IMG/VR virus record: IMGVR_UViG_3300009506_000003
Span: 32,001-96,000 of that record
Length of the DNA: 64,000 nucleotides
Source of the DNA: a virus
Direction: 5' to 3' (one strand)
Part shown: piece after piece, positions 6,953-63,065 of the stretch
How positions within the stretch are numbered: the stretch's first letter is position 1
Layout of the letters: each line of letters opens with the position of its first letter
Program-made: the position numbers and the translations under genes
Notes under the pieces: model-generated
What the model was told of the DNA's origin: nothing
The model's input: only the letters and a program-made list of their open reading frames with translations
Databases searched by the model: none

Positions 6953-9900
6953 TACACATCCTCAGCTTCTATGATGACGTTGAATGCTTGGTCGAACTGG
7001 CTCAGTGCCTCCTCCTCGTCCAAAACCCTCCTGACGTCTAACTCGAACCCGTCGGAGATCCCGTACTTCAAGAGGTCCCAGTGAGAGACGCTCAACACCT
7101 CCGAGTCCACGTGCCCAATCCGTATCCTAGCATTGGTGCTTGAGGTTGTGGGCTCGAAACCCGGCTCGTCTATCTCAAGAATCACGTCCTCATCGATTCT
7201 CAAGACCACCTTGCCGCCCACCGTCTTCTCAAAACGATAGAGATGGAACTTGGTCCAGTCGACCTGGGCGTAGGTGCCCGCCACATCCTCATCCCCAGCT
7301 CTGATGGCATCAAGGTTCTCTTTGAATCCATCGGCAGTGGAGTCGAACTTCTTGTGCTGGAGTGCCACGATCTTGCCCAAGGGGGGACCGGCCTCAGCAA
7401 AGTTGATGCTCCACAAGAAAGTGCCATCGAAGATCTGGACTACCACACCCGTGAACGCGCGAATCGGGTTCACCCCCTCCGTCCAGCGGGTCGACCCTTC
7501 ACTGACCGTGTACGATGCAACTCGAGATCTCCACTCGACGTGCCATCCTGAGTCAGACTGAAGAACGCCAATCAACTCCCTATCGAACCTCTGGTTGAGG
7601 AGTCCCACGTCCGAGATAATCGCGAACGTCGGGTCGACTATCTCCTCCCACTCGATCTCGGGGTTTCCACTGTCGGCCCCAGATGCGGAGGGATTCTCGA
7701 TGGTGACCTCGTACCCAGTGATGTACCCGCTGATCCGGTAGATGCCTGGATGGTCCCCATTGAGGATTCGAAGGTAGTTGCCCACTGACTCAGCAGACAT
7801 GCCCGTCAGTCCAGATACGGAGACTACCCCGGCTGCTTCTTCGATACTCGCATCGGCCCCCTGGTTGGACTCTTGAGAATCCGTCCCAGGCACCACGGTG
7901 CCACCAACACTGGGGGCCCACGATGGTGTAGCAGACACCAGGTCTCTCCAGTCCGTCACCTGCCCCAAGTAGGAATAGCGGATCCTCCGAACGAACATCT
8001 CAGCTTCAGCGTCCACCGCATTCGCGTTGTGCAAGAACCCGATTCCGGGACCCGGAAGAGCTGCGGCTGGAAGGTCTATCGCTAGCACCTCCACCACGAG
8101 ATCCTCCGTCAAGCCCTCGTCCGTCTCGATGATGTTGTAGAGCTTCACCCGGTCTCCGGGCTGGTAGATGAGACGGTACTGGCGCTCAGTGCCGAAGGAC
8201 TGTTGCCCGCCTTCATAGGATGACAAGAGCTCAGGGTTCGCAGAGTCTGTCAGGATGCCGACGTACTGCGTCCCAGCACTGTCCTGCAGCAAGGCAAACC
8301 GGACGTCATTTGTCCCGTCGCTGATGTAGACCTCGATGCCAGTAGAGGCTGCTCCCTCTTCTTGCCTGACCACGGAGCCAGAAAGCCAGAAGTCCAAAAC
8401 GATGGGCCCTGTGACTCGAGGCTCTATGCGGTGGTAGCCAATGCTCTCCGCGCCTTGGCGACGGGTGAGCTGCAAACCGAGAGGGCACACCCGTTGGTAC
8501 CCACCCCAGGTGCCAAACGAAGCCGGCAAGGGTAACCACGGGCTCGAGGCGTCCAGTGGAGCGCTCTCAGTGCCATCGTACTCTATCTGGTTGTTCGTTC
8601 TGATGATGGAGACGTGCCCGCCTGCGGGGATACCATTGGCAACAGCTCGACTCACCTCGTTGTGAAGGAAGACACCCTTCCAGCGGCTGACACTGGTGGC
8701 GGCCGTTTCAACACCATGCCCGAAAATGACCCACGGTTGAGGTGTGCGAATCTCCCAAGAGGGGACAGAACCGAAAGCGGATACGGTAGTCTCGATGAGC
8801 AGGCGGTCACTGTCCGCGAACTCATCTTTCACATACAGCTTCACCAAGTCGAGCTGGGGGTGCCACAGCAGCTTGAAGGTGTTCGAGCCATCAGGATTCA
8901 AAGCAGCGCCCACGTCCCAGTCAAAGGCTGTACTTGGAACCACTACCTGGGGCCCTGTGAGGCCCGCATCGTACAGCGCTACCGTGCGCCCGCCATCGTC
9001 GATGAACTTGACCACAACTCCAGAGTCGTTTGCATACAACCCGACCTGCACCCCGCTGAGGATGCCAGAGTAGGCCACCTCTGAAGCATTCAGCTTCAGG
9101 GTGAACTCGATCATCATGGGAGCGTCCGGATTGGCCGGTGCCTCGAGCCCACCCATACGGAGTACGGCCTCCTGATTGCTGCCGCCGGCGAGCTTGGAGA
9201 TCTTCAGGTAGTCCCCATCGAGCTCGAGCTCAGCCGGGTTGTTGGGGTGCCCAGACAGTGCTTCGAAGTGCATCGTGGGAAAGTCGAGGTCCTGTGGAAG
9301 CTCATCTCCCAGGTAGAACACCGGGCCGTTTCCCAGGTAGACGTTGACCTTTCCGCGGTCAACCTCAGAGTCCGGGTCCCGAAGACTGCACCGAAGGCTA
9401 GACCCAACCTTTGCAGTGGAGTTGTGCAAGGGAACGATGTTGGTGACAATGGCTGCTTCACTGAAAACAGAGAAGCTCCACACCACACTTGAACCCTCGC
9501 CTCCTGGCCCAGAGGTCTCCACCCTCCAGTAGTAGAGCGACCCCGCGGACAGTGTTCCTGGATCATATGTCAGGCCGGTCTGGAATCCCTTGAACGTTCC
9601 ACCGACGCCGGCGAGGACATCAGCTTCCACCTGCCCGAAGTACACGTTGTACCCGTCGATGTGAGGGTCGCCTCCGACCGGAGCCGCCCATTCCAGTTGC
9701 TGCGTGGACGGGATTCCTGTGGACCCGTTCGGGGGGTCCACGATAGTTGGCGGGTCCGGAGCGGCCGGGGTCAACACGGTGAAGCTCCAGATGGCTCCCT
9801 TGGTGGTACCACCTTCCCCGACAGTATCGATTCTCCAATAGTGCGTCAGGCCGAAGCTCAGCGTGCCTGGATCGTAGGTTGTTCCTGCTTGATTCCCTTT

Positions 9901-10779
9901 GAAGGTTCCGCCCACTCCGGCGTCGACGTTGGCGTAGGACGTTCCGAAGTAGACATCGTAGCTGGATACAGGAGAGCCTCCAGATGGAGGATCCCACTCG
10001 AGCTGTTGTGTCTCCGGCCTCCCAGTGGCTCCATTGAGCGGATCAACGATCACCGCCTGATTGGGAGGCGGTGTAGGCATGAGAGAGACGATAGCTCCTG
10101 TGACGAAGTCGATGATGGTGCCAAAGCCCGTTATGTCGGAGTACGTGCTCCTTCCAGGGACGATGCTGGCGTCAATGCGGTCTCCGACTATGAGGCGCTG
10201 CTGGTCATTGTGAACCTGCCCACCACCTGTGTAGTTGAAGTACCTCTTGCCGACGAGGCTGAAGCTGTTGCCCGGATCTGTTGCGGAGCTCCAGGCATCC
10301 GTGCCGTCGTTGTGGGCCATAGCCGCGACGTACAGCTCTCCAGCCATAGATGGAGTGCCCGCTGTACCCGACACAACCGTGGCGGGGTTAGACCCAGGGT
10401 TGCCTACATAGCTGGCAGTCAGATCGGCTCCTCCTGCCGCCCAGACGCCTGAGTACTGAGCGAAGCATGCTGCTAAAGGAGCTCCGACGTCTTTGTAGAG
10501 GTACGCCGAAGAAGACACCCCTGGTCCAACAACCTCACCAATCCAAATCTCTACGGTTGGCTTTCTCTCCCCAGATCCGGCATAGGGGTTGTTGACCTCA
10601 ATGAGCTTCGACCAGTTGACCCCGGTCTGACTGATGCTGGAGAGGCCACAGTTGTGCCAGCTCGTGATGCACGTGATGATGGTCCGACCCACTACTGGCG
10701 TGAAGCCCATGCCCACAAACCAGGAGGTGGCCGTGGAGTTGTGGGCCGCGTTCGTCTGATGTGTCCGAACTATTGCCAC
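6952..10779 (-). CDS. Large virion protein with two FN3-like repeats and lectin-like beta domains
   Basis: 1275 aa; duplicated QQLEW...Y.VYFG...FKG.Q...TYDPGTL...YWR...WSF unit; SD AGGAGG before GTG. Confidence 0.65.
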   Translation of the reverse strand: MAIVRTHQTNAAHNSTATSWFVGMGFTPVVGRTIITCITSWHNCGLSSISQTGVNWSKLIEVNNPYAGSGERKPTVEIWIGEVVGPGVSSSAYLYKDVGAPLAACFAQYSGVWAAGGADLTASYVGNPGSNPATVVSGTAGTPSMAGELYVAAMAHNDGTDAWSSATDPGNSFSLVGKRYFNYTGGGQVHNDQQRLIVGDRIDASIVPGRSTYSDITGFGTIIDFVTGAIVSLMPTPPPNQAVIVDPLNGATGRPETQQLEWDPPSGGSPVSSYDVYFGTSYANVDAGVGGTFKGNQAGTTYDPGTLSFGLTHYWRIDTVGEGGTTKGAIWSFTVLTPAAPDPPTIVDPPNGSTGIPSTQQLEWAAPVGGDPHIDGYNVYFGQVEADVLAGVGGTFKGFQTGLTYDPGTLSAGSLYYWRVETSGPGGEGSSVVWSFSVFSEAAIVTNIVPLHNSTAKVGSSLRCSLRDPDSEVDRGKVNVYLGNGPVFYLGDELPQDLDFPTMHFEALSGHPNNPAELELDGDYLKISKLAGGSNQEAVLRMGGLEAPANPDAPMMIEFTLKLNASEVAYSGILSGVQVGLYANDSGVVVKFIDDGGRTVALYDAGLTGPQVVVPSTAFDWDVGAALNPDGSNTFKLLWHPQLDLVKLYVKDEFADSDRLLIETTVSAFGSVPSWEIRTPQPWVIFGHGVETAATSVSRWKGVFLHNEVSRAVANGIPAGGHVSIIRTNNQIEYDGTESAPLDASSPWLPLPASFGTWGGYQRVCPLGLQLTRRQGAESIGYHRIEPRVTGPIVLDFWLSGSVVRQEEGAASTGIEVYISDGTNDVRFALLQDSAGTQYVGILTDSANPELLSSYEGGQQSFGTERQYRLIYQPGDRVKLYNIIETDEGLTEDLVVEVLAIDLPAAALPGPGIGFLHNANAVDAEAEMFVRRIRYSYLGQVTDWRDLVSATPSWAPSVGGTVVPGTDSQESNQGADASIEEAAGVVSVSGLTGMSAESVGNYLRILNGDHPGIYRISGYITGYEVTIENPSASGADSGNPEIEWEEIVDPTFAIISDVGLLNQRFDRELIGVLQSDSGWHVEWRSRVASYTVSEGSTRWTEGVNPIRAFTGVVVQIFDGTFLWSINFAEAGPPLGKIVALQHKKFDSTADGFKENLDAIRAGDEDVAGTYAQVDWTKFHLYRFEKTVGGKVVLRIDEDVILEIDEPGFEPTTSSTNARIRIGHVDSEVLSVSHWDLLKYGISDGFELDVRRVLDEEEALSQFDQAFNVIIEAEDV

Positions 10780-17058: not shown

Positions 17059-17498
17059 TTCTCCTCCGGTGCGGCAATGTCAGCTTTGTCAACGTATTCG
17101 TCCATCTCCGCTACCTCAAGAGGTTTCAGCGCCTTTATCTCCTCTATGACACCGTCCAGGGTGTTCACGATGGCCAGTACTCGGTCCAGCTTCGTAGGCC
17201 GCTGAGTGTCCACCCCACTAGGGAGCGTAGCCCTTTTGATAGGCTCTTTGCCCGCCTCCTCGTCCTGCTCTGGGTTGTAGGAGTACGGGTCAAACTTGGC
17301 CTTGTTGGACCGCTCGCTTTCCCCGTTGCGTTCAATCTGGTCCCCCATCAACTGCTCGAGCGTGACGGTGGCCATGGCGGCGTTGGCTTCCGCGCTCCGG
17401 ATGAACGAGAAAGCGTCTGCCACGGCGGCCCGCAATCGCTTCCCTGGAGTCGGCTCCAGGTTCTCGTCAGCGGTTATTTGGAGGTCGTCTTCACTCAT
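17055..17498 (-). CDS. Hypothetical protein
   Basis: 147 aa, 4-nt overlaps with both neighbours. Confidence 0.7.
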   Translation of the reverse strand: MSEDDLQITADENLEPTPGKRLRAAVADAFSFIRSAEANAAMATVTLEQLMGDQIERNGESERSNKAKFDPYSYNPEQDEEAGKEPIKRATLPSGVDTQRPTKLDRVLAIVNTLDGVIEEIKALKPLEVAEMDEYVDKADIAAPEEK

Positions 17499-20491
17499 TC
17501 AAAGGGCATCTCCGGTTCGTCATCAATGTCACTGTAATCGAAATCGGCATCGGTTGTCGTTATCCGATCAGTGGCAATGTCTCTTTGGTCCAGAATGGCC
17601 GCACGAGTACGTGAGGGACGCGGCAAGTCGTTGACCACGTTTCTCGATGCAGACATGACCGCTCCACCGTAAGAGGCAGTCTCTTCGTTGGTGGCGAAGA
17701 ACTCGACCACCTTTCCCTGCTGCAGGAGCTCCATCGCCCTGTCGTACTTTCGCTCCCGTAGAGCGTCCAAAAAGCTGTCTACTGCAACGACGTCGGGCGC
17801 CTCATACCCAGACAGGATGCTCGCCAGGTCATCGGCGGCGTTGGGTATCTGGTATTCGTACTCGTTGGTCCTGCTGTAGTTGGTGGTCAAGATCGACAGC
17901 AGGTCTCCAACCATTCTTCGTGCTTGGTTCCGAGACGCAAGGAAGTTCCTGCCCGGTAGCACAGCCAGCGTCACTGCGTTGCTGATGGCATCGATACCCT
18001 CGTCGAACTTGTTCTTGCGAAGCAGGTTCGGGGAGGACACAAACGTCTTGAGTCGCGCATTCAGCGCTTCGTACGACTTGGCCGCCGCACTCTTGATCTC
18101 AAATCCAGCATGCTCGACGTTGGAGGGGACACCAGTCTCTAAGATCAACCTGGTGGAATCCTGTACCTCTTCGATGACGTACTCAGTGGGGTTTCCCACC
18201 ACTCTCAGCAAGTCGGTAGGAACCACGCCTTTGAACTGCAGCTTCGACCCGAGCTTGTCTACCGCCTCAAACTGAGGAATCGAGCTGTAGACGACCCCCG
18301 AGGGAAGACCGAGCTCAGAAGGAGAAGAGGTCACTTCAAGAGAGGTTCCTGGCCCGGAGTCCGTCAAGGAGATCTTCACCTGCTCCCGGAAGATCCGAAA
18401 CGGAATGTTCTCCAGTTTGGAAGGGAAAGCCCCCTCTTCCACCTCAACTACCTCAGAGCTGATCACGGAAGTGATATGGTAGAGGCCTGCCCACGGACCT
18501 GACAGCAACTCTACCTGGTCTCCAGGCTGAACTCCGGCTTCCACGACATCCTCCCCCACCAACGCAATCCTGGAGACGGCTGTGGAGGTCTGAGCGCTGT
18601 TCCCGATCAGGAGCTCAGTGGTCACTACCTCACCCACGAGCCCAGAGATCGAACCTATCCTGCCAGCAAGCTCGGAAGCGGAGAGCGTGTCTGCGTCGTC
18701 GGTGTCGCCCTCGTAGAACCCCAGAACGATGTGAGCTGATGCTTCAACTAGGCCTGCAGAGCCCACTGGATCTGGGATGTTCAGAAACCGTCCTGTGATT
18801 TGGGCGAAAGGGTTCACCCTAGACCTGATGCGCAAGGCTATCTTCCCGTTGAACGTCGTTGGGAAGAGGTGCCAGTTCAAAGTGGCTCCGGGATTTGTTG
18901 CAGGGAACGGACCGGTCTCCGCCTCGATGTCTCCAACAATAGCGCTGGCGCTCCTGACACCCAAGCTGAGCTCGGCTGTCTTGACCGCCGGCCCCACTTG
19001 CACTCTGTGACCTGCCGCCGGGGCGTTGGTCAAAGCAGGCAGCACGTCAAACACTGCGTTTGATATGTTGCCGTATAGTGTAGGGGAGCCCCCAAACGAA
19101 GGTGTCATCCCACGAGGGTCGATAGTGGCGTAGTCGGAGCTCTCCACCGAAAGGATCTCGAACCTGTTGCCTGCGCCGTCTTTGATGTACCCGCCCACGT
19201 GGTCCGAAGTGAACCCAACAGCTAGCTGACCCCCTGCTCCCCATGTGGGGCAATAGACCTGACTCGTAGCAGGCACCCAAGACCCCGCCAGTAGGTACTG
19301 CAGCAGGTACAAGTCGGTGATGAATCTCCCCTGAAAGTCTGACGGGGCTGTCACCAAAGAGTCTGGGAAAAAGACGGGGCATCCGACATGCTTGAAGCTC
19401 AGCTCGGGCAACGTGGTCACAATGTGAGTCGCAGTAGAAGTGCCCAAAGCAGTGCCGTCGTAGGTGCTTGGATCGACACAGACGTGCAGGTACTTGTTGT
19501 CGGTCGTGATGGGAAATGATTCCGGCGCGCGGCCCGCGATGAATGACCCTATGATGCCTGCCAAATCCAAAGAGGATGGGGATCCTCCGCTGACGGAGAT
19601 GTCCAAAGACCCAGAGACGGGAAACTTCCACGGGGCCGGACCTGTCAAAACCGACGCAGGAGTACCCGTACCAACTACCCTACCATAGTGCTTCATGGTG
19701 GAGGGGATAGGACGAGTAGGCCCTCGGAACTTGAACTCCGATGGGTCCTTGAAGGTGCCCAAGAGCTTCACAGCCACCTTGTTCGCCAGGGTCTGCAAGA
19801 AGAGGTCCCTGCTACCCTCCAGGTTTTCCGTATCGGTGGAGTCGGCCACCTGGTCTGAGGCATCTTTGAGACGCTGGCTGATTGAGGCCAGTACGGAGCT
19901 CGACACTCTCGACGGGATGTCCAACGAGAGAAAGCTGGTGAGAACGTCCTTCAAAGCCGTAGTCTGAGACAGGAGTCGAGCATGGACCGCGGTCAGCGTC
20001 TGCAGGTTCTTCTGGATGACCGTCCGAGCCTCCTCTCGAGGACGGACCATGATGTTCCCTCGCTCCCTGGAGACGACGTTCTTCTTCACCTTGGCGGCGA
20101 AAATGTCCATCTGGCGGATGAACCGCTCGGTCTCTGGTCTGTCTGACACGGAGGAGGCCGCGTCCAAGGATAGGATGGTTGTGCGCGCGTTGTTGAGAGT
20201 GGTCTCGTCCCGAATCGGGGAGCCTATTTTGCCCAAGTCCTCGAGCAGGACCATGATGTCTTCGAGGATCCTCACCTCCTCGTTGGTGATCGAGTTCAGG
20301 CGATTCCGAGCCATCTTGGCCAGGTAGAACACCGAATCCGTACTGAAGAGGAACGTGGTAGAGGCGAGCTCGAGGAGCTGATTGTACTCGGTCTGGGTGT
20401 TGAGCGTGCCACCTTCGACGCCAGGATTGATGCCGGCTCGAAAGAGCTTGGAGACTTCATTGAGGAGGTCTGCGTTGGTGTACTCTGCCAT
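17495..20491 (-). CDS. Large virion structural protein (helical termini, beta-repeat core)
   Basis: Start moved to ATG 20491 (TGATG overlap); contains the GVQPGDQVELLSGPWAGLYHI repeat shared with the baseplate proteins. Confidence 0.65.
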   Translation of the reverse strand: MAEYTNADLLNEVSKLFRAGINPGVEGGTLNTQTEYNQLLELASTTFLFSTDSVFYLAKMARNRLNSITNEEVRILEDIMVLLEDLGKIGSPIRDETTLNNARTTILSLDAASSVSDRPETERFIRQMDIFAAKVKKNVVSRERGNIMVRPREEARTVIQKNLQTLTAVHARLLSQTTALKDVLTSFLSLDIPSRVSSSVLASISQRLKDASDQVADSTDTENLEGSRDLFLQTLANKVAVKLLGTFKDPSEFKFRGPTRPIPSTMKHYGRVVGTGTPASVLTGPAPWKFPVSGSLDISVSGGSPSSLDLAGIIGSFIAGRAPESFPITTDNKYLHVCVDPSTYDGTALGTSTATHIVTTLPELSFKHVGCPVFFPDSLVTAPSDFQGRFITDLYLLQYLLAGSWVPATSQVYCPTWGAGGQLAVGFTSDHVGGYIKDGAGNRFEILSVESSDYATIDPRGMTPSFGGSPTLYGNISNAVFDVLPALTNAPAAGHRVQVGPAVKTAELSLGVRSASAIVGDIEAETGPFPATNPGATLNWHLFPTTFNGKIALRIRSRVNPFAQITGRFLNIPDPVGSAGLVEASAHIVLGFYEGDTDDADTLSASELAGRIGSISGLVGEVVTTELLIGNSAQTSTAVSRIALVGEDVVEAGVQPGDQVELLSGPWAGLYHITSVISSEVVEVEEGAFPSKLENIPFRIFREQVKISLTDSGPGTSLEVTSSPSELGLPSGVVYSSIPQFEAVDKLGSKLQFKGVVPTDLLRVVGNPTEYVIEEVQDSTRLILETGVPSNVEHAGFEIKSAAAKSYEALNARLKTFVSSPNLLRKNKFDEGIDAISNAVTLAVLPGRNFLASRNQARRMVGDLLSILTTNYSRTNEYEYQIPNAADDLASILSGYEAPDVVAVDSFLDALRERKYDRAMELLQQGKVVEFFATNEETASYGGAVMSASRNVVNDLPRPSRTRAAILDQRDIATDRITTTDADFDYSDIDDEPEMPFE

Positions 20492-20982
20492 CACATAGCC
20501 GCCGCGACTTGCCACTGAACCATCGGTATCGATGAGCTCAGGAACGTTTCCCTACTGATAACACGAGGTCGGAACTTCTCGCGATGCTCTTCGTTGAACC
20601 GGTAGAGAGGCAAGAACGGCGTGGCAAAGTTGGATGTCTTCCACTTCTCCGTGTTTTCTACGGTCACCTTCACGATGTCGTAGACAAAGTCTTCTCGGAA
20701 TTGGGTCGTCTCCATCTTCTTGATGTCCGAGCGCGTTAGCTTGGTGGTGAGCCTGCGGAGATAGTCAGGGTTCCAACCAAACAGATCGCAGACTTCCTCA
20801 AAGCTCACTCCGTTCTCATAGCGTAGCCCCTCCGTGAAGATGTACTGGAACGACTTCTTCCACTCGATGGACCGAGACCTGACACCCTTGTAGAGCACGT
20901 AGTCGAACACGGCCCTGCGGAGGACGGCTGCCCAGAGCATCTTGTCGCCAAATGGCAGCTCGTTCTTGTTCGCCCAAGTCAT
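20491..20982 (-). CDS. Hypothetical protein (LWAAVL.RA..DY...SF..VC..FG.NPDYLR type)
   Basis: 163 aa, translationally coupled at both ends; function unknown. Confidence 0.7.
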   Translation of the reverse strand: MTWANKNELPFGDKMLWAAVLRRAVFDYVLYKGVRSRSIEWKKSFQYIFTEGLRYENGVSFEEVCDLFGWNPDYLRRLTTKLTRSDIKKMETTQFREDFVYDIVKVTVENTEKWKTSNFATPFLPLYRFNEEHREKFRPRVISRETFLSSSIPMVQWQVAAAM

Positions 20983-59467: not shown

Positions 59468-60379
59468 TTACGCCCGTTGCTGGACCTCGTCAAGGATGAC
59501 TCTTGCGAGCTCCGGATTCATCTCCAAGATCGCAGTCGCTTCTCCTTCTCCTCTTCCAAGGCTCTCGTCTCCCCACATGTACCAAGGACCAGCCTGCACA
59601 ATGACCCCGGCGTCACGCGCGACTCGAATGAGGTCTCGAAGAGTGTCCACTCCCGATCCTTTCACGAAGGGCAACGAGATGATCGATGCTGGCCTCGAGT
59701 AGACGTTGGCTACTACGTTCACCTGCATCGTGAACGTGTGGTCTGTGACTTCCGTTCTGCTCAGCTCCAGGCGAGTACTGAACCTGTCGATGATCTTCCG
59801 GGCAGCGGAATCGATGTCCCCGTCCACGAAGAACTTGTCGGGCTTGATGCTTCTCCGAGTCCGAATCTGGTTCGTCATCACGATGCACGACCCACGTCCC
59901 AAGAAAGGAAGCGCCACCTCCAAAAAGGTGTCCACCATCAAGTTCCATTCACCAAACTCGTCTTCCTTGGGCCGCATGGACGTAGCTGAATCGATTGCCA
60001 AGATGCAAGGCACGTCCTGGTGGAGCTCCAAGAACTTGCAGGCTCCAGCGAGTACGTCCTCCCCGTAGTTCCCTGTGATGAGGAGCAGCCGATTGAGGTC
60101 GATGTCGAAGACCCTCATGTACGGAATGTCCAAGTACTCGGTTGGGCACAAGGCCGCAGCCAACCCAGCGCGTTGAGCGGTACCGACGATCTCGTACAAC
60201 AAGGACGTCTTCCCTGCTGAAGCCGGGCCGTAGATCTCAATGGCGCCGGCAGGAAGGGCCCCACCAATCTCTCTGTCCAGGCTCACGATTCCAGTAGCGG
60301 TGCTGAAGTCCAATGCTGGAGACCGCTTCACTCCCCAAGCCTTCACGACGTCCTCGATACCCTCATCAACGATGCCCAT
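59468..60379 (-). CDS. recA: Divergent RecA/UvsX-like ATPase
   Basis: TGIVSLD..IGG.LP.G..EIYGPASAGKT, Walker B LAIDS, TNQIR, C-terminal GVI..AG.WY.WG..LG.G. Confidence 0.85.
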   Translation of the reverse strand: MGIVDEGIEDVVKAWGVKRSPALDFSTATGIVSLDREIGGALPAGAIEIYGPASAGKTSLLYEIVGTAQRAGLAAALCPTEYLDIPYMRVFDIDLNRLLLITGNYGEDVLAGACKFLELHQDVPCILAIDSATSMRPKEDEFGEWNLMVDTFLEVALPFLGRGSCIVMTNQIRTRRSIKPDKFFVDGDIDSAARKIIDRFSTRLELSRTEVTDHTFTMQVNVVANVYSRPASIISLPFVKGSGVDTLRDLIRVARDAGVIVQAGPWYMWGDESLGRGEGEATAILEMNPELARVILDEVQQRA

Positions 60380-60501: not shown

Positions 60502-61053
60502 ATGGAAGCTGAGAAAATTCAAGCGTTGCTATCAGTATCACCAACCAAGCTCGAGAAGGTGGCCGAGCGAATCGAGATTCCCCTACCCCTGGCCAGGGAG
60601 ATGCGTGTCCAAGCATTGAATCTGATGCTGGGGAAGTGCGTGCTGTGTGAAACGCCCACCCCGATGGGTCTTTGCACGTCCTGCAGAAGGAACACAGGAG
60701 GGAAGCCCATCCTGCGGACCACTCGGGAGAAGATTCTCCGCAAGCTCGACCCGAAAGCGGTCCTCATTCGACGTCCGTGCGCCACGTGCGGCAACGAGTT
60801 CACTCAGACTGTCGACGCCATCATTCGCAACCTGCTCAACTTTGGCCGACCTCACATCGCGAAGAGCTGCAGGAAGTGCAGAGGCAAGAAGAGGAAGATG
60901 TCGGCGCTCGATCAACCGAAAGAAAGGAGGAAGAGGAAGCCCGCCGGCGACGGCCATATCGTCAATCAACCGTTCGCAGAGAGCGAAGTGCTCGCTCAGA
61001 TGCGTTCCAACCTGCAGTCGCAGGAAAACCCCGGAAACAAAGCGAAAAAGTGA
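60502..61053 (+). CDS. Basic zinc-finger protein
   Basis: CVLC..CTSC and CATC..CRKC; ATG 60502 after AAAGG. Confidence 0.7.
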   Translation: MEAEKIQALLSVSPTKLEKVAERIEIPLPLAREMRVQALNLMLGKCVLCETPTPMGLCTSCRRNTGGKPILRTTREKILRKLDPKAVLIRRPCATCGNEFTQTVDAIIRNLLNFGRPHIAKSCRKCRGKKRKMSALDQPKERRKRKPAGDGHIVNQPFAESEVLAQMRSNLQSQENPGNKAKK

Positions 61054-61472: not shown

Positions 61473-61532
61473 GGCCCTCGTCAGGCGGAAGCCTGGCGAG
61501 GCCCTTCGGGTAAAAAATCAGGTTTTTCTTTT
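61473..61532 (+). terminator. Hairpin with GGAA tetraloop and downstream T-tracts
   Basis: CCTCGTCAGGC-GGAA-GCCTGGCGAGG downstream of the stop at 61444. Confidence 0.5.
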
Positions 61533-61544
61533 CGGTATAAGAAT
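61527..61544 (+). promoter_or_regulatory. ATAAG promoter-like motif (TTTTCGGTATAAGAAT)
   Basis: Near-identical to the copy at 62954-62969. Confidence 0.6.
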
Positions 61545-61749
61545 CTTGGAAGCTAGGAGTACCCCTTCTCGTTCATGGCCAAAAAAAGAAGACTGAAGAG
61601 CTACGAGAAGGAGGGACCTCATGAGCTTTCTGCCTGAGAGCGGGTAGGGTCGAGCTTCGGCTCGGCCCTACTCCAGGCAGGCACGATTGTTTTTTAGCTC
61701 CCGCGCTTCTAGTATGGGTGAAGGCCACGTACTCGAACGGGAGACTGTG

Positions 61750-62010
61750 ATGAAGATAGAGCCTACCCAGGACGCGCCGCTGGTGCTCAACATGAATGCG
61801 GTCCAGCGCGTCTACCAGAATGTAGTGGTAGACGATGAAGTCGATGAGGACGACAACGAAGTCGTGCTCAAGATGCAAGCCACCAAGGATTTCAAGAAGA
61901 AGCTCAACGCAGTTGCACATCGGCTCCTCACCATCAGCATCCAACGAGCAGTAGAAGACGGAAGGAACACAATCTGGGTGGAAGACCTGCCCGAGATACA
62001 GGAGGTGTGA
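61750..62010 (+). CDS. Bacterial-type histone-fold protein with an acidic loop insertion
   Basis: LVLNMNAVQRVY-(DDEVDEDDNE)-MQATKDFKKKLNAVAHRLLTISIQRAVEDGRNTIWVEDL has histone helix spacing and the RxTxxxxD motif; SD GGGAG. Confidence 0.75.
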   Translation: MKIEPTQDAPLVLNMNAVQRVYQNVVVDDEVDEDDNEVVLKMQATKDFKKKLNAVAHRLLTISIQRAVEDGRNTIWVEDLPEIQEV

Positions 62011-62011
62011 C

Positions 62012-62359
62012 CTGAGCGAGTGGAAAGCGTGCTCGGGGACGATGTCAGACGGTCGCCGGCACTGCTACTACCGCGCAGTCACACAGCTCAACGGTAGATG
62101 GTACTGCAGGAAGTGCTTCCGCCAACGGATAGCCAAACCCAAGCCGTCTCCCAAGCCAAAGAAAAAGTCAGCAGTCATCAACCCCGCCGGGCGCATTCCC
62201 GACAAAGACTTGCTGAAGCTCTACAGGAACGTTCGTCGATACCAGGAGTCCGGAGGCACCATGGATGTCTACAGCTCCAAAGTCCTCATCAACGAAATCG
62301 TTCCTGCCCTGCTACTCGAAGTGATGCGGCTTCGAGGTATCGAACTGCCAGAGGGTTGA
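62012..62359 (+). CDS. Zinc-finger-containing basic protein (probable CTG start)
   Basis: GGAGG lies 6 nt before the in-frame CTG at 62012; the extension adds a fourth Cys. Confidence 0.6.
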   Translation: MSEWKACSGTMSDGRRHCYYRAVTQLNGRWYCRKCFRQRIAKPKPSPKPKKKSAVINPAGRIPDKDLLKLYRNVRRYQESGGTMDVYSSKVLINEIVPALLLEVMRLRGIELPEG

Positions 62360-62494
62360 GGTATGCCTCTCAGGCAAGGAGTCCAACATGCCTTTTCACA
62401 TTTGAGCAAACGAGATCATGGCGGTCGCCATGACACTTCCGTTCATCGGGTGGATCTTCCATTGGGTCCGTCACAAACTGAAAGGACAAAAGCC

Positions 62495-62626
62495 ATGTTC
62501 CGATTTGGAAAACGAGGGATCGTGTTCGTTGGGTCAGTGCGAGCATTCCGAAGAGCACTCCGAGATCTACGATCCGCTCGACCCGGGATGACGCTGCTCG
62601 AGTACTGCAATGAGCACACTTCCTGA
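62495..62626 (+). CDS. Small hypothetical protein
   Basis: AAAGGA SD before ATG 62495; could extend upstream to 62363. Confidence 0.4.
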   Translation: MFRFGKRGIVFVGSVRAFRRALRDLRSARPGMTLLEYCNEHTS

Positions 62627-62953: not shown

Positions 62954-62969
62954 TTTTCGTCATAAGAAT
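62954..62969 (+). promoter_or_regulatory. ATAAG promoter-like motif (TTTTCGTCATAAGAAT)
   Basis: Intergenic, upstream of the gene at 63066. Confidence 0.6.
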
Positions 62970-63065
62970 CATGGAGCGGGATTGGACACCCCGCGCCATA
63001 ACTGTGGGGTCGGCTGCTGCTTTGGCTATGAGCAGTCGGCCCCACGCAACTCTCAGGAGAACATC

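What the first reader, a model, noticed from the sequence alone, without database searches (positions are those of the whole stretch)
61750..62010. Phage-encoded bacterial-type histone with an acidic loop
Seen: the 86-aa protein aligns by eye with short bacterial histones such as Bdellovibrio Bd0055 (helix 1, M.(T/A)S/T..F...L......L.......A..DGR.T....D), keeping the RxTxxxxD signature (GRNTIWVEDL). Loop 1 carries an insertion, VDDEVDEDDNEV, where histones contact DNA, and the protein is net acidic. Inference: not a packaging histone but a dominant-negative partner or DNA mimic that could strip host histones. This would imply a histone-bearing host.
Basis: partly seen in the sequence, partly recalled or inferred. 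Interest (0 to 1): 0.8.

Follow-up and report, generated by a model that had tools for sequence, protein, structure and literature searches.

The report
Acidic hairpin-bearing histone-fold protein of phage
A large uncultured marine-sediment phage carries a genuine miniature bacterial-type histone whose DNA-facing side has become strongly acidic, so it probably binds other proteins rather than packing DNA, but its role is untested.

Summary
The 86-aa ORF at 61750-62010 (+) is real and is a histone fold. Of 48,161 solved chains, the three best structural matches are the three alpha3-truncated prokaryotic histones HBb, HTkC and HLp (Z 6.8-6.4, whole chains aligned). A family profile also finds HTkC (E 6.7e-5) and HBb.

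It belongs to a small family seen only in metagenomes and this virus record, with 18 sequences aligned. All 18 are acidic (pI of 15 listed sequences 4.1-4.8). All carry a conserved acidic stretch, net -3 to -8, between helix 1 and the L1 strand; it is modelled as a beta-hairpin in the two members folded.

A homodimer with histone handshake contacts is predicted. The gene keeps its slot beside a RecA-like gene in a related phage.

Best reading: a histone-fold dimer that no longer coats DNA and instead binds basic DNA-binding proteins as a decoy or chaperone. This is inferred, not shown. Nothing supports heterodimers with host histones or a histone-bearing host; the host is unknown.

Phage alpha3 histone-fold proteins are already in print. 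The scan noted an acidic phage histone fold before on other DNA (e1-5819161); whether it is the same family was not shown.

The parts
61750..62010 (+). Gene for the 86-aa acidic alpha3-truncated histone-fold protein (P0001), stop codon included
   Evidence: ORF; homologues; fold; predicted homodimer
61739..61743 (+). GGGAG ribosome-binding site, 6 nt before the ATG
   Evidence: read; the L002 orthologue has AGGAG at a similar distance
61792..61818 (+). Helix alpha1 (residues 15-23), with invariant Y22
61822..61869 (+). Acidic beta-hairpin inserted before the L1 strand (residues 25-40; net -8 over residues 24-40); residues 28-39 lie outside the predicted dimer interface
61870..61884 (+). Canonical L1 strand (residues 41-45, KMQAT). 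Residues 43-45 pair with residues 75-77 of the partner chain. This stretch aligns to HBb residues 20-24, which hold the DNA-contact residues T23 and S24
61885..61956 (+). Helix alpha2 (residues 46-69), with invariant F48 and N53; antiparallel alpha2-alpha2 crossing in the predicted dimer
61963..61986 (+). R72-x-T74-x-x-x-x-D79 motif spanning L2 and the 3-residue alpha3 (H77-79). E78 stands where HBb has the DNA-contact residue R57
61531..61549 (+). 19-nt promoter-like motif TTCGGTATAAGAATCTTGG, 201 nt before the ATG. The same motif, with one base different (A/T at position 13), lies 161 nt before the orthologue in L002
   Evidence: 0 expected by chance in shuffles
61642..61673 (+). Stem-loop in the 5' leader, kept in L002 with 4 pairs changed on both sides (only two sequences compared)
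59468..60379 (-). RecA/UvsX-like recombinase gene, the conserved divergent neighbour on the left
62418..62591 (+). Small Cys-rich protein, the conserved neighbour on the right (47% identical to L002 10339..10614)

Best explanation
P0001 is a lineage-specific phage member of the alpha3-truncated histone superfamily (HBb/HTkC/HLp type). It forms a histone 'handshake' homodimer. Its canonical DNA-binding face is weakened: the position of the HBb contact R57 is acidic, and the positions of the alpha1 lysines are probably uncharged. A conserved, strongly acidic beta-hairpin has been added beside each L1-L2 site, and many members also have an acidic C-terminal tail.

It therefore most likely does not coat or compact DNA. 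More likely it uses the two acidic hairpins of the dimer to hold basic, DNA-binding proteins of the host or of the phage, as a DNA-like decoy or as a chaperone. It is expressed from its own promoter-like element inside the replication/recombination gene block.

Shown here: the gene is real, the fold, the family, the acidity and the conserved gene position. Predicted: the homodimer and the hairpin. Inferred: loss of bulk DNA binding. Conjecture: the decoy or chaperone role and its target.
For: Fold. AF2 pLDDT is 85.7 for P0001 and 82.7 for the 37%-identical P0009, with the same helix-hairpin-helix-short helix layout. VIA-align puts HBb, HTkC and HLp first among 48,161 chains, at Z 6.8, 6.6 and 6.4 with rmsd 1.3-1.7 over 58/58, 58/58 and 56/56 residues. 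Nearly all of the next rows are histone-fold proteins. Profile against PDB: 15 of 16 hits are histone folds, and 11 of 15 with the 18-sequence profile.

Dimer. ipSAE is 0.86 with a best control of 0.00. This mark was reached by 20 of 30 proteins solved as pairs of one chain and by 1 of 23 solved as single chains. The runs agree in at least 100% of their contacts and the partner's pLDDT is at least 90. Contacts are alpha2-alpha2 (52-59, 56-56) and L1 43-45 with L2 75-77. Residues 28-39 lie outside the interface. Dimers of like histones are solved, so the pass may be from memory and shows likeness.

Charge. The 15 sequences listed, Calx-beta P0008 apart, have pI 4.1-4.8 and net -5 to -15. The loop is net -3 to -8 in 18 of 18 members and the C-tails net 0 to -8. 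The crude phage ORF set has median pI 6.4, and only 8% of its small ORFs fall below pI 4.6.

DNA-contact positions. HBb contacts are K12, T23, S24, A25, K52, T53, R57 and T8, S9, K10 (PMC11317129, section 20 read). By the HMMER alignment, R57 corresponds to position 78, which is E 14, D 2, C 1, N 1. K52 corresponds to position 73, which is K/R in 11 of 18 and N in P0001. T53 corresponds to T74, kept in 8 of 18.

Phage lineage gene. The syntenic block runs from window 51.5-66.4 kb against L002 1-15.6 kb, and the gene sits in the same slot. No relative turned up in two scans of prokaryote genome contigs.
Against: No experiment and no DNA-complex model exist. R72, D79, the T/S at position 45 and a basic residue at position 73 (11 of 18) are kept. 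Alpha1 keeps K14 (10 of 18) and R20 (9 of 18). Some DNA or RNA contact is therefore possible.

All nearest structural relatives bind DNA, and the gene lies among DNA-metabolism genes (RecA-like; ThyX in L002), which fits a DNA-directed role equally well. Acidic histones exist in archaea, and at least some are thought to work on DNA at high salt (PMC13260811, passages read).

I had no model coordinates, so I could not measure which way the hairpin points relative to the DNA face. No partner protein was identified. The alpha1 mapping onto HBb K10 and K12 assumes an ungapped alignment taken from the ranges.
Confidence: 0.45

Rival explanations
1. It is still a DNA-architectural protein of the phage that bends or bridges DNA during replication or recombination. 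The acidic hairpins tune it: they could block wrapping or spreading, give specificity, or act through bound divalent cations.
For: The nearest relatives are DNA-binding histones. R72 and D79 are invariant, T/S45 is kept in 16 of 18, and K/R73 in 11 of 18. The gene sits beside a RecA-like gene in a DNA-metabolism block in both phages. The hairpin resembles in sequence the acidic strand-loop-strand of Calx-beta repeats: 10 of 20 residues identical to P0008, which is Calx-beta by Pfam at E 4.1e-18. That this Calx-beta element binds Ca2+ is recalled, not tested here.
Against: A monomer carries net -7, so a dimer carries about -14, and all listed members have pI 4.1-4.8 in a proteome that is not acidic. 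The R57-equivalent position is acidic in 16 of 18. A recalled EF-hand pattern matches 0 of 18 members and strict DxDxDG matches 1 of 18. P0001 itself lacks the Gly that 17 of 18 members have. Calx-beta did not appear among the Pfam hits of 12 members at E<=1.
Confidence: 0.28
2. One reading: it is a poison subunit that forms heterodimers with host histones (dominant negative) and strips them from DNA. This would mean the host bears histones.
For: A histone-fold monomer could in principle pair with another alpha3 histone. The fold is closest to bacterial and archaeal alpha3 histones. Phages are known to inhibit host nucleoid proteins (recalled, not tested here).
Against: A confident homodimer is predicted. 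The gene is part of a block shared by two phages of the lineage and not a recent host capture. No cellular relative was found in two genome scans. The host is unknown, and the nearest cultured phage proteins are below 32% identical.
Confidence: 0.07
3. It is a histone-fold adaptor with no link to nucleic-acid-binding partners. TAF, NF-Y and CENP histone folds serve as pure protein-protein modules in this way, for example in a phage replication or transcription complex.
For: Rows 4-50 of the structural search are dominated by TAF, CENP, NF-Y, MHF and Dpb folds. Weak Pfam hits go to TFIID-18kDa in 1 of 12 members and to DUF1931 in 4 of 12. N53 is invariant and not listed in the predicted dimer interface, so it could mark a partner site.
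Against: Only one histone-fold gene was detected in the 132.6-kb record, so there is no hetero-partner of the TAF kind. The conserved feature is charge, which points to basic partners.
Confidence: 0.15
4. It is not a gene: a chance ORF in GC-rich DNA. A 123-aa ORF overlaps it on the other strand.
For: An overlapping minus-strand ORF, 61573..61944, exists.
Against: Eleven small homologues were found by exhaustive phmmer, down to E 3.6e-23, and six more by profile. The gene position is conserved. The fold is confident. An SD and ATG are in place.
Confidence: 0.01

Closest known systems
HBb / Bd0055 of Bdellovibrio bacteriovorus ('bacterial dimer' alpha3 histones; PDB 8CMP, 8FVX, 9EZZ, 9F0E)
   Same: Best structural match (Z 6.8, rmsd 1.3 over all 58 residues). 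Both have a truncated alpha3, the R..T....D motif and a predicted handshake dimer.
   Different: The sequence link is weak (profile E 0.015-0.03). This protein is acidic, where histones are described as highly basic (PMC13260811). It has about 14 extra residues forming an acidic hairpin before L1 and about 10 extra N-terminal residues. The R57-equivalent position is E. It is known only from a phage record and metagenomes.
HTkC of Thermococcus kodakarensis and HLp of Leptospira perolatii (face-to-face, FtF, alpha3 histones; PDB 9F2C, 9QT0)
   Same: HTkC is the best sequence match (E 6.7e-5). Structure gives Z 6.6 and 6.4.
   Different: The FtF tetramer residues named by Schwab et al. (R48 and N52 of their logo, six and two residues before the motif Arg) are not kept. 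Position 66 is R in 3 of 18 and position 70 is N in 2 of 18. This protein also has the acidic hairpin.
'Phage histones' of Schwab et al. 2024 (PMC11390915) and VTTHFP of Liu et al. 2025 (PMC13681535)
   Same: They are phage-encoded alpha3-type histone folds (passages and section 9 read).
   Different: Those lack the RxTxxxD motif, carry a long C-terminal tetramerisation helix, and keep conserved Lys/Arg. This protein has R72 and D79, ends 7 residues after D79, and is acidic.
[quoted passage not shown] 2025 (PMC13681535)
   Same: They are viral, resemble Bd0055 and are predicted to be dimers (section 9 read).
   Different: Section 9 mentions neither an acidic character nor an L1 hairpin. Their survey used HMM cut-offs (E<1e-5) that this protein would probably miss, since it does not reach any Pfam threshold. 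Their supplements were not available, so I cannot exclude that a member of this family is on their list.
Acidic archaeal histones (clusters 2-5 of PMC13260811)
   Same: They are histone-fold dimers with an acidic pI, and the authors suggest some may not bind DNA (passages read).
   Different: Those are archaeal, and clusters 3-5 show the compositional bias of halophile proteins. Here the acidity is specific to this protein and sits in one inserted hairpin and the tail.
Phage DNA-mimic and decoy proteins (T7 Ocr, T4 Arn and the like; recalled, not searched here)
   Same: Small, acidic, dimeric phage proteins that bind host DNA-binding proteins. This is a likeness of proposed function only.
   Different: The folds are unrelated. 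No target and no DNA-like spacing of charges was shown here.

Membership tests
alpha3-truncated histone superfamily (Schwab et al. 2024) | Histone fold: alpha1 - L1 strand - long alpha2 - L2 strand - alpha3 | tested here: met
   AF2 models. VIA-align ranks HBb, HTkC and HLp first of 48,161 chains at Z 6.8-6.4. The top 7 Foldseek rows are the same proteins, though no row reaches E<=0.001.
alpha3-truncated histone superfamily (Schwab et al. 2024) | alpha3 cut down to 3-4 residues | tested here: met
   DSSP gives a helix at residues 77-79 only, in both models.
alpha3-truncated histone superfamily (Schwab et al. 2024) | RxTxxxxD motif at L2/alpha3 | tested here: met
   P0001 has R72-N-T74-I-W-V-E-D79. 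Across the family R and D are kept in 18 of 18 but T in only 8 of 18.
alpha3-truncated histone superfamily (Schwab et al. 2024) | Handshake dimer | tested here: met
   By prediction only: ipSAE 0.86 against a best control of 0.00, with alpha2-alpha2 and L1-L2 contacts. The pass may reflect solved look-alike dimers.
Histones as DNA-organising proteins | Basic protein with a positively charged DNA-binding face | tested here: not met
   pI 4.52, net -7. The R57-equivalent position is E. The acidic hairpin lies next to L1.
Histones as DNA-organising proteins | Binds, bends or wraps DNA | not testable with these tools
   This needs EMSA or a structure; no DNA-complex prediction was available.
Bacterial dimer histones (HBb group) | Clusters by sequence with HBb; found only in bacteria; conserved alpha1 lysines (logo positions 11, 13, 17) | tested here: inconclusive
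   The profile reaches HBb only at E 0.015-0.03. The family was found only in a virus record and metagenomes. Alpha1 has K14 in 10 of 18 and R20 in 9 of 18, but Q19 in 14 of 18. The register against the logo is not certain.
Face-to-face (FtF) histones | Tetramer residues R48 and N52 of the FtF logo | tested here: not met
   The positions six and two residues before R72 are R in 3 of 18 and N in 2 of 18 (definition). No tetramer was modelled.
'Phage histones' (Schwab 2024) / VTTHFP (Liu 2025) | C-terminal tetramerisation helix; no RxTxxxD motif | tested here: not met
   No helix follows residue 79, and the protein ends at residue 86. The motif is present.
Pfam CBFD_NFYB_HMF (PF00808) / DUF1931 (PF09123) | Score above the curated gathering cut-off | tested here: not met
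   PF00808 gives no hit. DUF1931 scores 14.8 bits against a cut-off of 21.8. Among members, 4 of 12 hit DUF1931, best E 0.0027.
EF-hand / DxDxDG calcium loops | Loop pattern (patterns recalled from memory) | tested here: not met
   The EF-hand pattern matches 0 of 18 and strict DxDxDG matches 1 of 18. P0001 matches neither, not even the relaxed form.

The most novel reading that the evidence does not exclude
A histone fold turned into an anti-DNA-binding-protein weapon. On this reading the dimer presents two conserved acidic hairpins exactly where histones hold DNA. It would act as a DNA mimic that traps a host nucleoid protein or a defence nuclease early in infection. That would make it the first decoy built on the histone fold itself.
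Probability: 0.2. Interest if true: 0.8.

Novelty: new variant of a known kind. Interest (0 to 1): 0.5.

Why it matters
Bacterial and phage histone-fold proteins were recognised only recently, and what they do is debated. This small family shows that a phage lineage has kept the histone dimer scaffold while reversing the charge of part of the surface that normally holds DNA.

If the protein really no longer binds DNA, it would be a clean natural example of a histone fold reused as a protein-binding or DNA-mimicking module outside eukaryotes. It would also be a handle on which host or phage DNA-binding proteins matter during infection by large sediment phages.

If it does bind DNA, it would show that a strongly acidic alpha3 histone can do so, which bears on the acidic archaeal histones as well.

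Tried and rejected
Searches for relatives and context that gave nothing:
- tblastn of P0001 against 50,697 phage records: no match.
- PHROGs: no family for P0001.
- Three scans of viral contigs, with P0001, A2 and A3: no relative.
- First metagenome scan, with A2: none. The second, with A3, gave one locus, L002.
- Two scans of genome contigs: none. These scans use patterns, so absence is weak evidence.
- Own record: no second copy and no PF00808 match.
- BFVD Foldseek: nothing clear, best E 1.3.

Host inference. The RecA-like protein and PolA against phage records gave only matches of 32% identity or less, to phages of many unrelated hosts. I made no host call.

Expression. No RNA holder was listed.

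Neighbour as a second histone fold. The 105-aa basic Cys-containing protein at 62042..62359 was compared with the family profile: hhalign probability 1.9%. It has no Pfam hit and no counterpart in L002. Rejected.

Calcium-loop reading. A recalled EF-hand pattern matched 0 of 18 and strict DxDxDG 1 of 18. I keep it only as a low-odds part of one rival.

Row dropped. P0008, a 556-aa Calx-beta repeat protein, was one of the 12 hits. I left it out of all alignments because it matches only the acidic strand-loop-strand. P0014 and P0015, cluster mates of P0012, were left out of A4.

Halophile explanation for the acidity. Rejected on a crude ORF set: median pI 6.4. That ORF call takes the longest ORF and includes spurious ones.

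Leader hairpin as an intrinsic terminator. The scan did not list it, and the T-run starts about 20 nt after the stem. I did not call it a terminator.

Supplementary files of the papers were not opened. They may list members of this family.
Full report
THE OBJECT

The ORF at 61750..62010 (+) encodes 86 residues. A GGGAG site lies 6 nt before the ATG. The homologues begin at the same point, so the longer TTG-started frame is not the gene.

The window is bases 32001-96000 of an IMG/VR virus record of 132,593 bases that CheckV rates 69% complete. The record has:
- a weak match to a phage head-and-packaging 'structural protein' family;
- a Baseplate-J match in a 1,743-aa protein;
- family-A DNA polymerase, DnaB-type helicase, an SF2 helicase and a second RecA-like gene.

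The replication genes are of bacterial type. No cultured phage is close: the best RecA-like and PolA matches are 32% identical or less and come from phages of many unrelated hosts. The DNA occurs in marine-sediment metagenome runs of one study.

IS IT A HISTONE FOLD?

The single sequence gives only sub-threshold signals: Pfam DUF1931 at E 0.033 and 14.8 bits against a cut-off of 21.8, and PDB 9f2c at E 1.2.

Family. An exhaustive phmmer run over 1.84 billion representatives found 12 proteins at E<=1e-3 and 5 at E<=1e-10.
- Eleven are small, 80-132 aa.
- The twelfth, P0008, is a 556-aa Calx-beta repeat protein that matches only the acidic stretch. I dropped it.
- A profile search added six more members, which gave the 18-sequence alignment A4.
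- One member had been labelled 'histone H3/H4' by its source. Two members sit on contigs of 199,555 and 199,698 bases, which fits a phage genome of about 190-200 kb.

Sequence link to histones.
- The 12-sequence profile finds HTkC (9f2c) at E 6.7e-5. Schwab et al. identify this as the face-to-face histone of Thermococcus kodakarensis.
- The same profile finds HBb/Bd0055 at 0.03, then HPhA, NF-YC, HMfA/B, HLp and H3. Fifteen of 16 hits at E<=10 are histone folds; the other is Pumilio.
- With 18 sequences, 11 of 15 hits at E<=1 are histone folds; the others are three Pumilio chains and CWC27.

Structure.
- The AF2 model has pLDDT 85.7 and pTM 0.69. It shows alpha1 at 15-23, strands at 25-31 and 37-40, alpha2 at 46-69, and a three-residue helix at 77-79.
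- P0009, the 37%-identical member from locus L002, gives the same layout at pLDDT 82.7.
- Foldseek against the PDB has no hit at E<=0.001, which is expected for so short a chain. Its first seven rows are HBb and HTkC chains (probability 0.98-1.00, target-normalised TM 0.78-0.84), and the rest are nucleosomal, NF-Y, TFIID and similar folds.
- VIA-align against 48,161 representative chains gives exactly three matches at Z>=5: HBb (Z 6.8, rmsd 1.3 A, 58 of 58 residues), HTkC (Z 6.6, rmsd 1.6, 58 of 58) and HLp (Z 6.4, rmsd 1.7, 56 of 56). Histone-fold proteins follow at Z 4.8 and below. The tool warns that Z under 8 can be a common arrangement. What carries weight here is that the three top rows are the three solved alpha3-truncated histones, aligned over their whole length, and that the sequence profile agrees.
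- The protein atlas puts it nearest a viral cluster (0.91) and clusters partly carrying PF00808.

I take the fold as established at about 0.9.

WHAT IS SPECIAL

All 15 sequences listed, apart from the Calx-beta protein P0008, are acidic: pI 4.1-4.8 and net -5 to -15. P0001 has pI 4.52 and net -7.

This is not a proteome-wide trait. A crude ORF set of the record has median pI 6.4, and only 8% of its small ORFs fall below pI 4.6.

The acidity sits in two places.
- The stretch between alpha1 and the L1 strand is net -3 to -8 in 18 of 18 members. Its consensus is E-E-D-E-D-G-N, with G35 in 17 of 18; P0001 has D there. P0001 and P0002 carry three or four extra residues.
- The C-terminal tail is net 0 to -8.

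It is modelled as a beta-hairpin in the two members that were folded. Against HBb it accounts for about 14 unaligned residues.

Invariant residues are Y22, F48, N53, R72 and D79. A44, G35 and P81 are nearly invariant.

DNA-CONTACT POSITIONS

Hu et al. list the HBb contacts as K12, T23, S24 and A25 of one chain, K52, T53 and R57 of the other, plus T8, S9 and K10 (PMC11317129, section 20 read).

The HMMER alignment puts HBb 20-59 on P0001 41-80.

| HBb residue | P0001 position | Family composition (18 sequences) |
|---|---|---|
| T23 | A44 | A in 17 |
| S24 | T45 | T or S in 16 |
| K52 | 73 (N in P0001) | K or R in 11 |
| T53 | T74 | T in 8 |
| R57 | 78 | E 14, D 2, C 1, N 1 |

For alpha1 I have only the ranges. 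On an ungapped assumption K10 and K12 fall on positions 17 (A, Q or R) and 19 (Q in 14 of 18). K14 (10 of 18) and R20 (9 of 18) are the only common basic residues of alpha1.

The contact set is therefore partly kept and partly reversed, with a strongly acidic hairpin added next to L1.

OLIGOMER

Two copies give ipSAE 0.86, 0.86 and 0.85, against 0.00 for all three controls.
- The mark was reached by 20 of 30 proteins solved as pairs of one chain and by 1 of 23 solved as single chains.
- The runs agree in at least 100% of their contacts, and the partner's pLDDT is at least 90.
- The closest contacts are alpha2 with alpha2 (52-59, 56-56) and L1 43-45 with L2 75-77. This is the histone handshake.
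- Residues 28-39 are outside the interface.
- Like dimers are solved, so the pass shows likeness and does not prove binding.

The face-to-face tetramer residues named by Schwab et al. are not conserved.

CONTEXT

One related locus could be fetched, L002, a metagenome contig of 25,369 bases. BLASTP of all ORFs shows one syntenic block, window 51.5-66.4 kb against L002 1-15.6 kb, at about 31-77% identity.

In both phages the histone-fold gene lies between:
- on the left, a divergently transcribed RecA/UvsX-like gene (51% identical) followed by a small membrane-anchored protein;
- on the right, a small Cys-rich protein (47% identical).

The histone-fold proteins themselves are 41% identical.

The window has two extra genes that L002 lacks: a zinc-finger protein at 60505..61053 and a basic 105-aa protein at 62042..62359. 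L002 has a thymidylate synthase ThyX-like gene and others.

The gene is thus part of a block shared by two phages of this lineage and not a fresh capture. No second histone-fold gene was found in the record. No relative was found in two pattern scans of one genome each for 185,579 prokaryote species.

EXPRESSION SIGNALS

A 19-nt motif, TTCGGTATAAGAWTCTTGG, lies 201 nt before the ATG in the window. The same motif, with one base different at the W position, lies 161 nt before it in L002. None is expected by chance.

Between motif and gene both phages have a strong stem-loop, at window 61642-61673. Four pairs are changed on both sides. Leader folding z-scores are -3.9 and -4.3. With two sequences this is a lead only.

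No sigma-70-type promoter was found. No RNA data were available.

READING

Shown: a real, conserved, phage-lineage gene for an alpha3-truncated histone fold.

Predicted: a handshake homodimer, and a hairpin outside the dimer interface.

Inferred: bulk DNA coating is unlikely. The grounds are a dimer charge of about -14, an acidic residue at the R57 position, and acidic hairpins beside the L1-L2 sites.

Conjecture: it binds basic DNA-binding proteins, as a decoy or a chaperone. I give this whole reading 0.45.

The main rival, at 0.28, is that it still works on DNA, perhaps with divalent cations. The grounds are that R72, D79, T/S45 and K/R73 persist, that all near relatives bind DNA, and that the hairpin looks like the acidic strand-loop-strand of Calx-beta repeats. 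Against this, calcium-loop patterns fit poorly.

The implied histone-bearing host has no support.

COMPARISON WITH PRINT

Schwab et al. 2024 define alpha3 histones and a 'phage histone' class that lacks the motif and has a C-terminal tetramerisation helix (passages read).

Liu et al. 2025 report 84 bacterial-like histone-fold proteins in tailed phages and six viral types, among them Bd0055-like dimers. The section I read describes none of them as acidic or as carrying an L1 hairpin.

Acidic archaeal histones, some suspected not to bind DNA, are described in PMC13260811 (passages read).

My three literature searches turned up no description of this family. Supplements were closed, so a listing there cannot be excluded.

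Within this scan an acidic phage histone fold was reported before on another genome (e1-5819161). Look-ups by sequence with P0001, P0007 and P0012 did not link it to this family.

VERDICT

This is a new variant of a known kind, and interest is moderate.

Noticed in passing
window 61531-61549 and 61642-61673; L002 9807-9825 and about 9895-9926: A 19-nt promoter-like motif stands upstream of the histone-fold gene in two phages that share only about 50% protein identity; the two copies differ at one base. A leader stem-loop follows, with 4 compensatory pairs, and a T-run about 20 nt after it. Weaker copies of the motif (3 mismatches) lie at window 62956-62974 and at L002 9209-9227 (-), 9740-9758 and 19608-19626.
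   Followed up: partly
P0001 residues 25-45 (window 61822-61884) against P0008: The acidic hairpin and L1 strand resemble the acidic strand-loop-strand of Calx-beta repeats. This explains the one large hit of the exhaustive search. It may be compositional, or it may hint at cation binding.
   Followed up: partly
window 62042-62359 (+): A 105-aa very basic protein with an N-terminal Cys/His cluster, a Lys/Pro-rich linker and a helical C-terminal part lies directly after the histone-fold gene. It is absent from L002, has no Pfam or PHROG hit, and shows no profile similarity to the histone family (probability 1.9%).
   Followed up: partly
window 62418-62591 (+); L002 10339-10614: A small protein with a hydrophobic N-terminal segment and a conserved Cys/His-rich end is kept directly downstream in both phages. 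It has no family match.
   Followed up: no
window 59468-60379 (-) and G000:C1:17431-18858 (outside the window): The record encodes two RecA-like proteins. One is a 303-aa UvsX-like protein next to the histone-fold gene. The other is a 475-aa protein with a RecA/KaiC-type ATPase match.
   Followed up: no
window 19716-19794 (-): ARAGORN calls a tRNA-Pro(TGG) inside the span of the longest reading frame of a 1,006-aa minus-strand ORF (17495..20515). Either that ORF starts further downstream or the tRNA call is false.
   Followed up: no
window 61621-61647 (+): An 8-codon mini-ORF with a strong AAGGAGG site ends in the 5' arm of the leader stem-loop. L002 has no equivalent with a ribosome-binding site, so it is probably chance.
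   Followed up: partly
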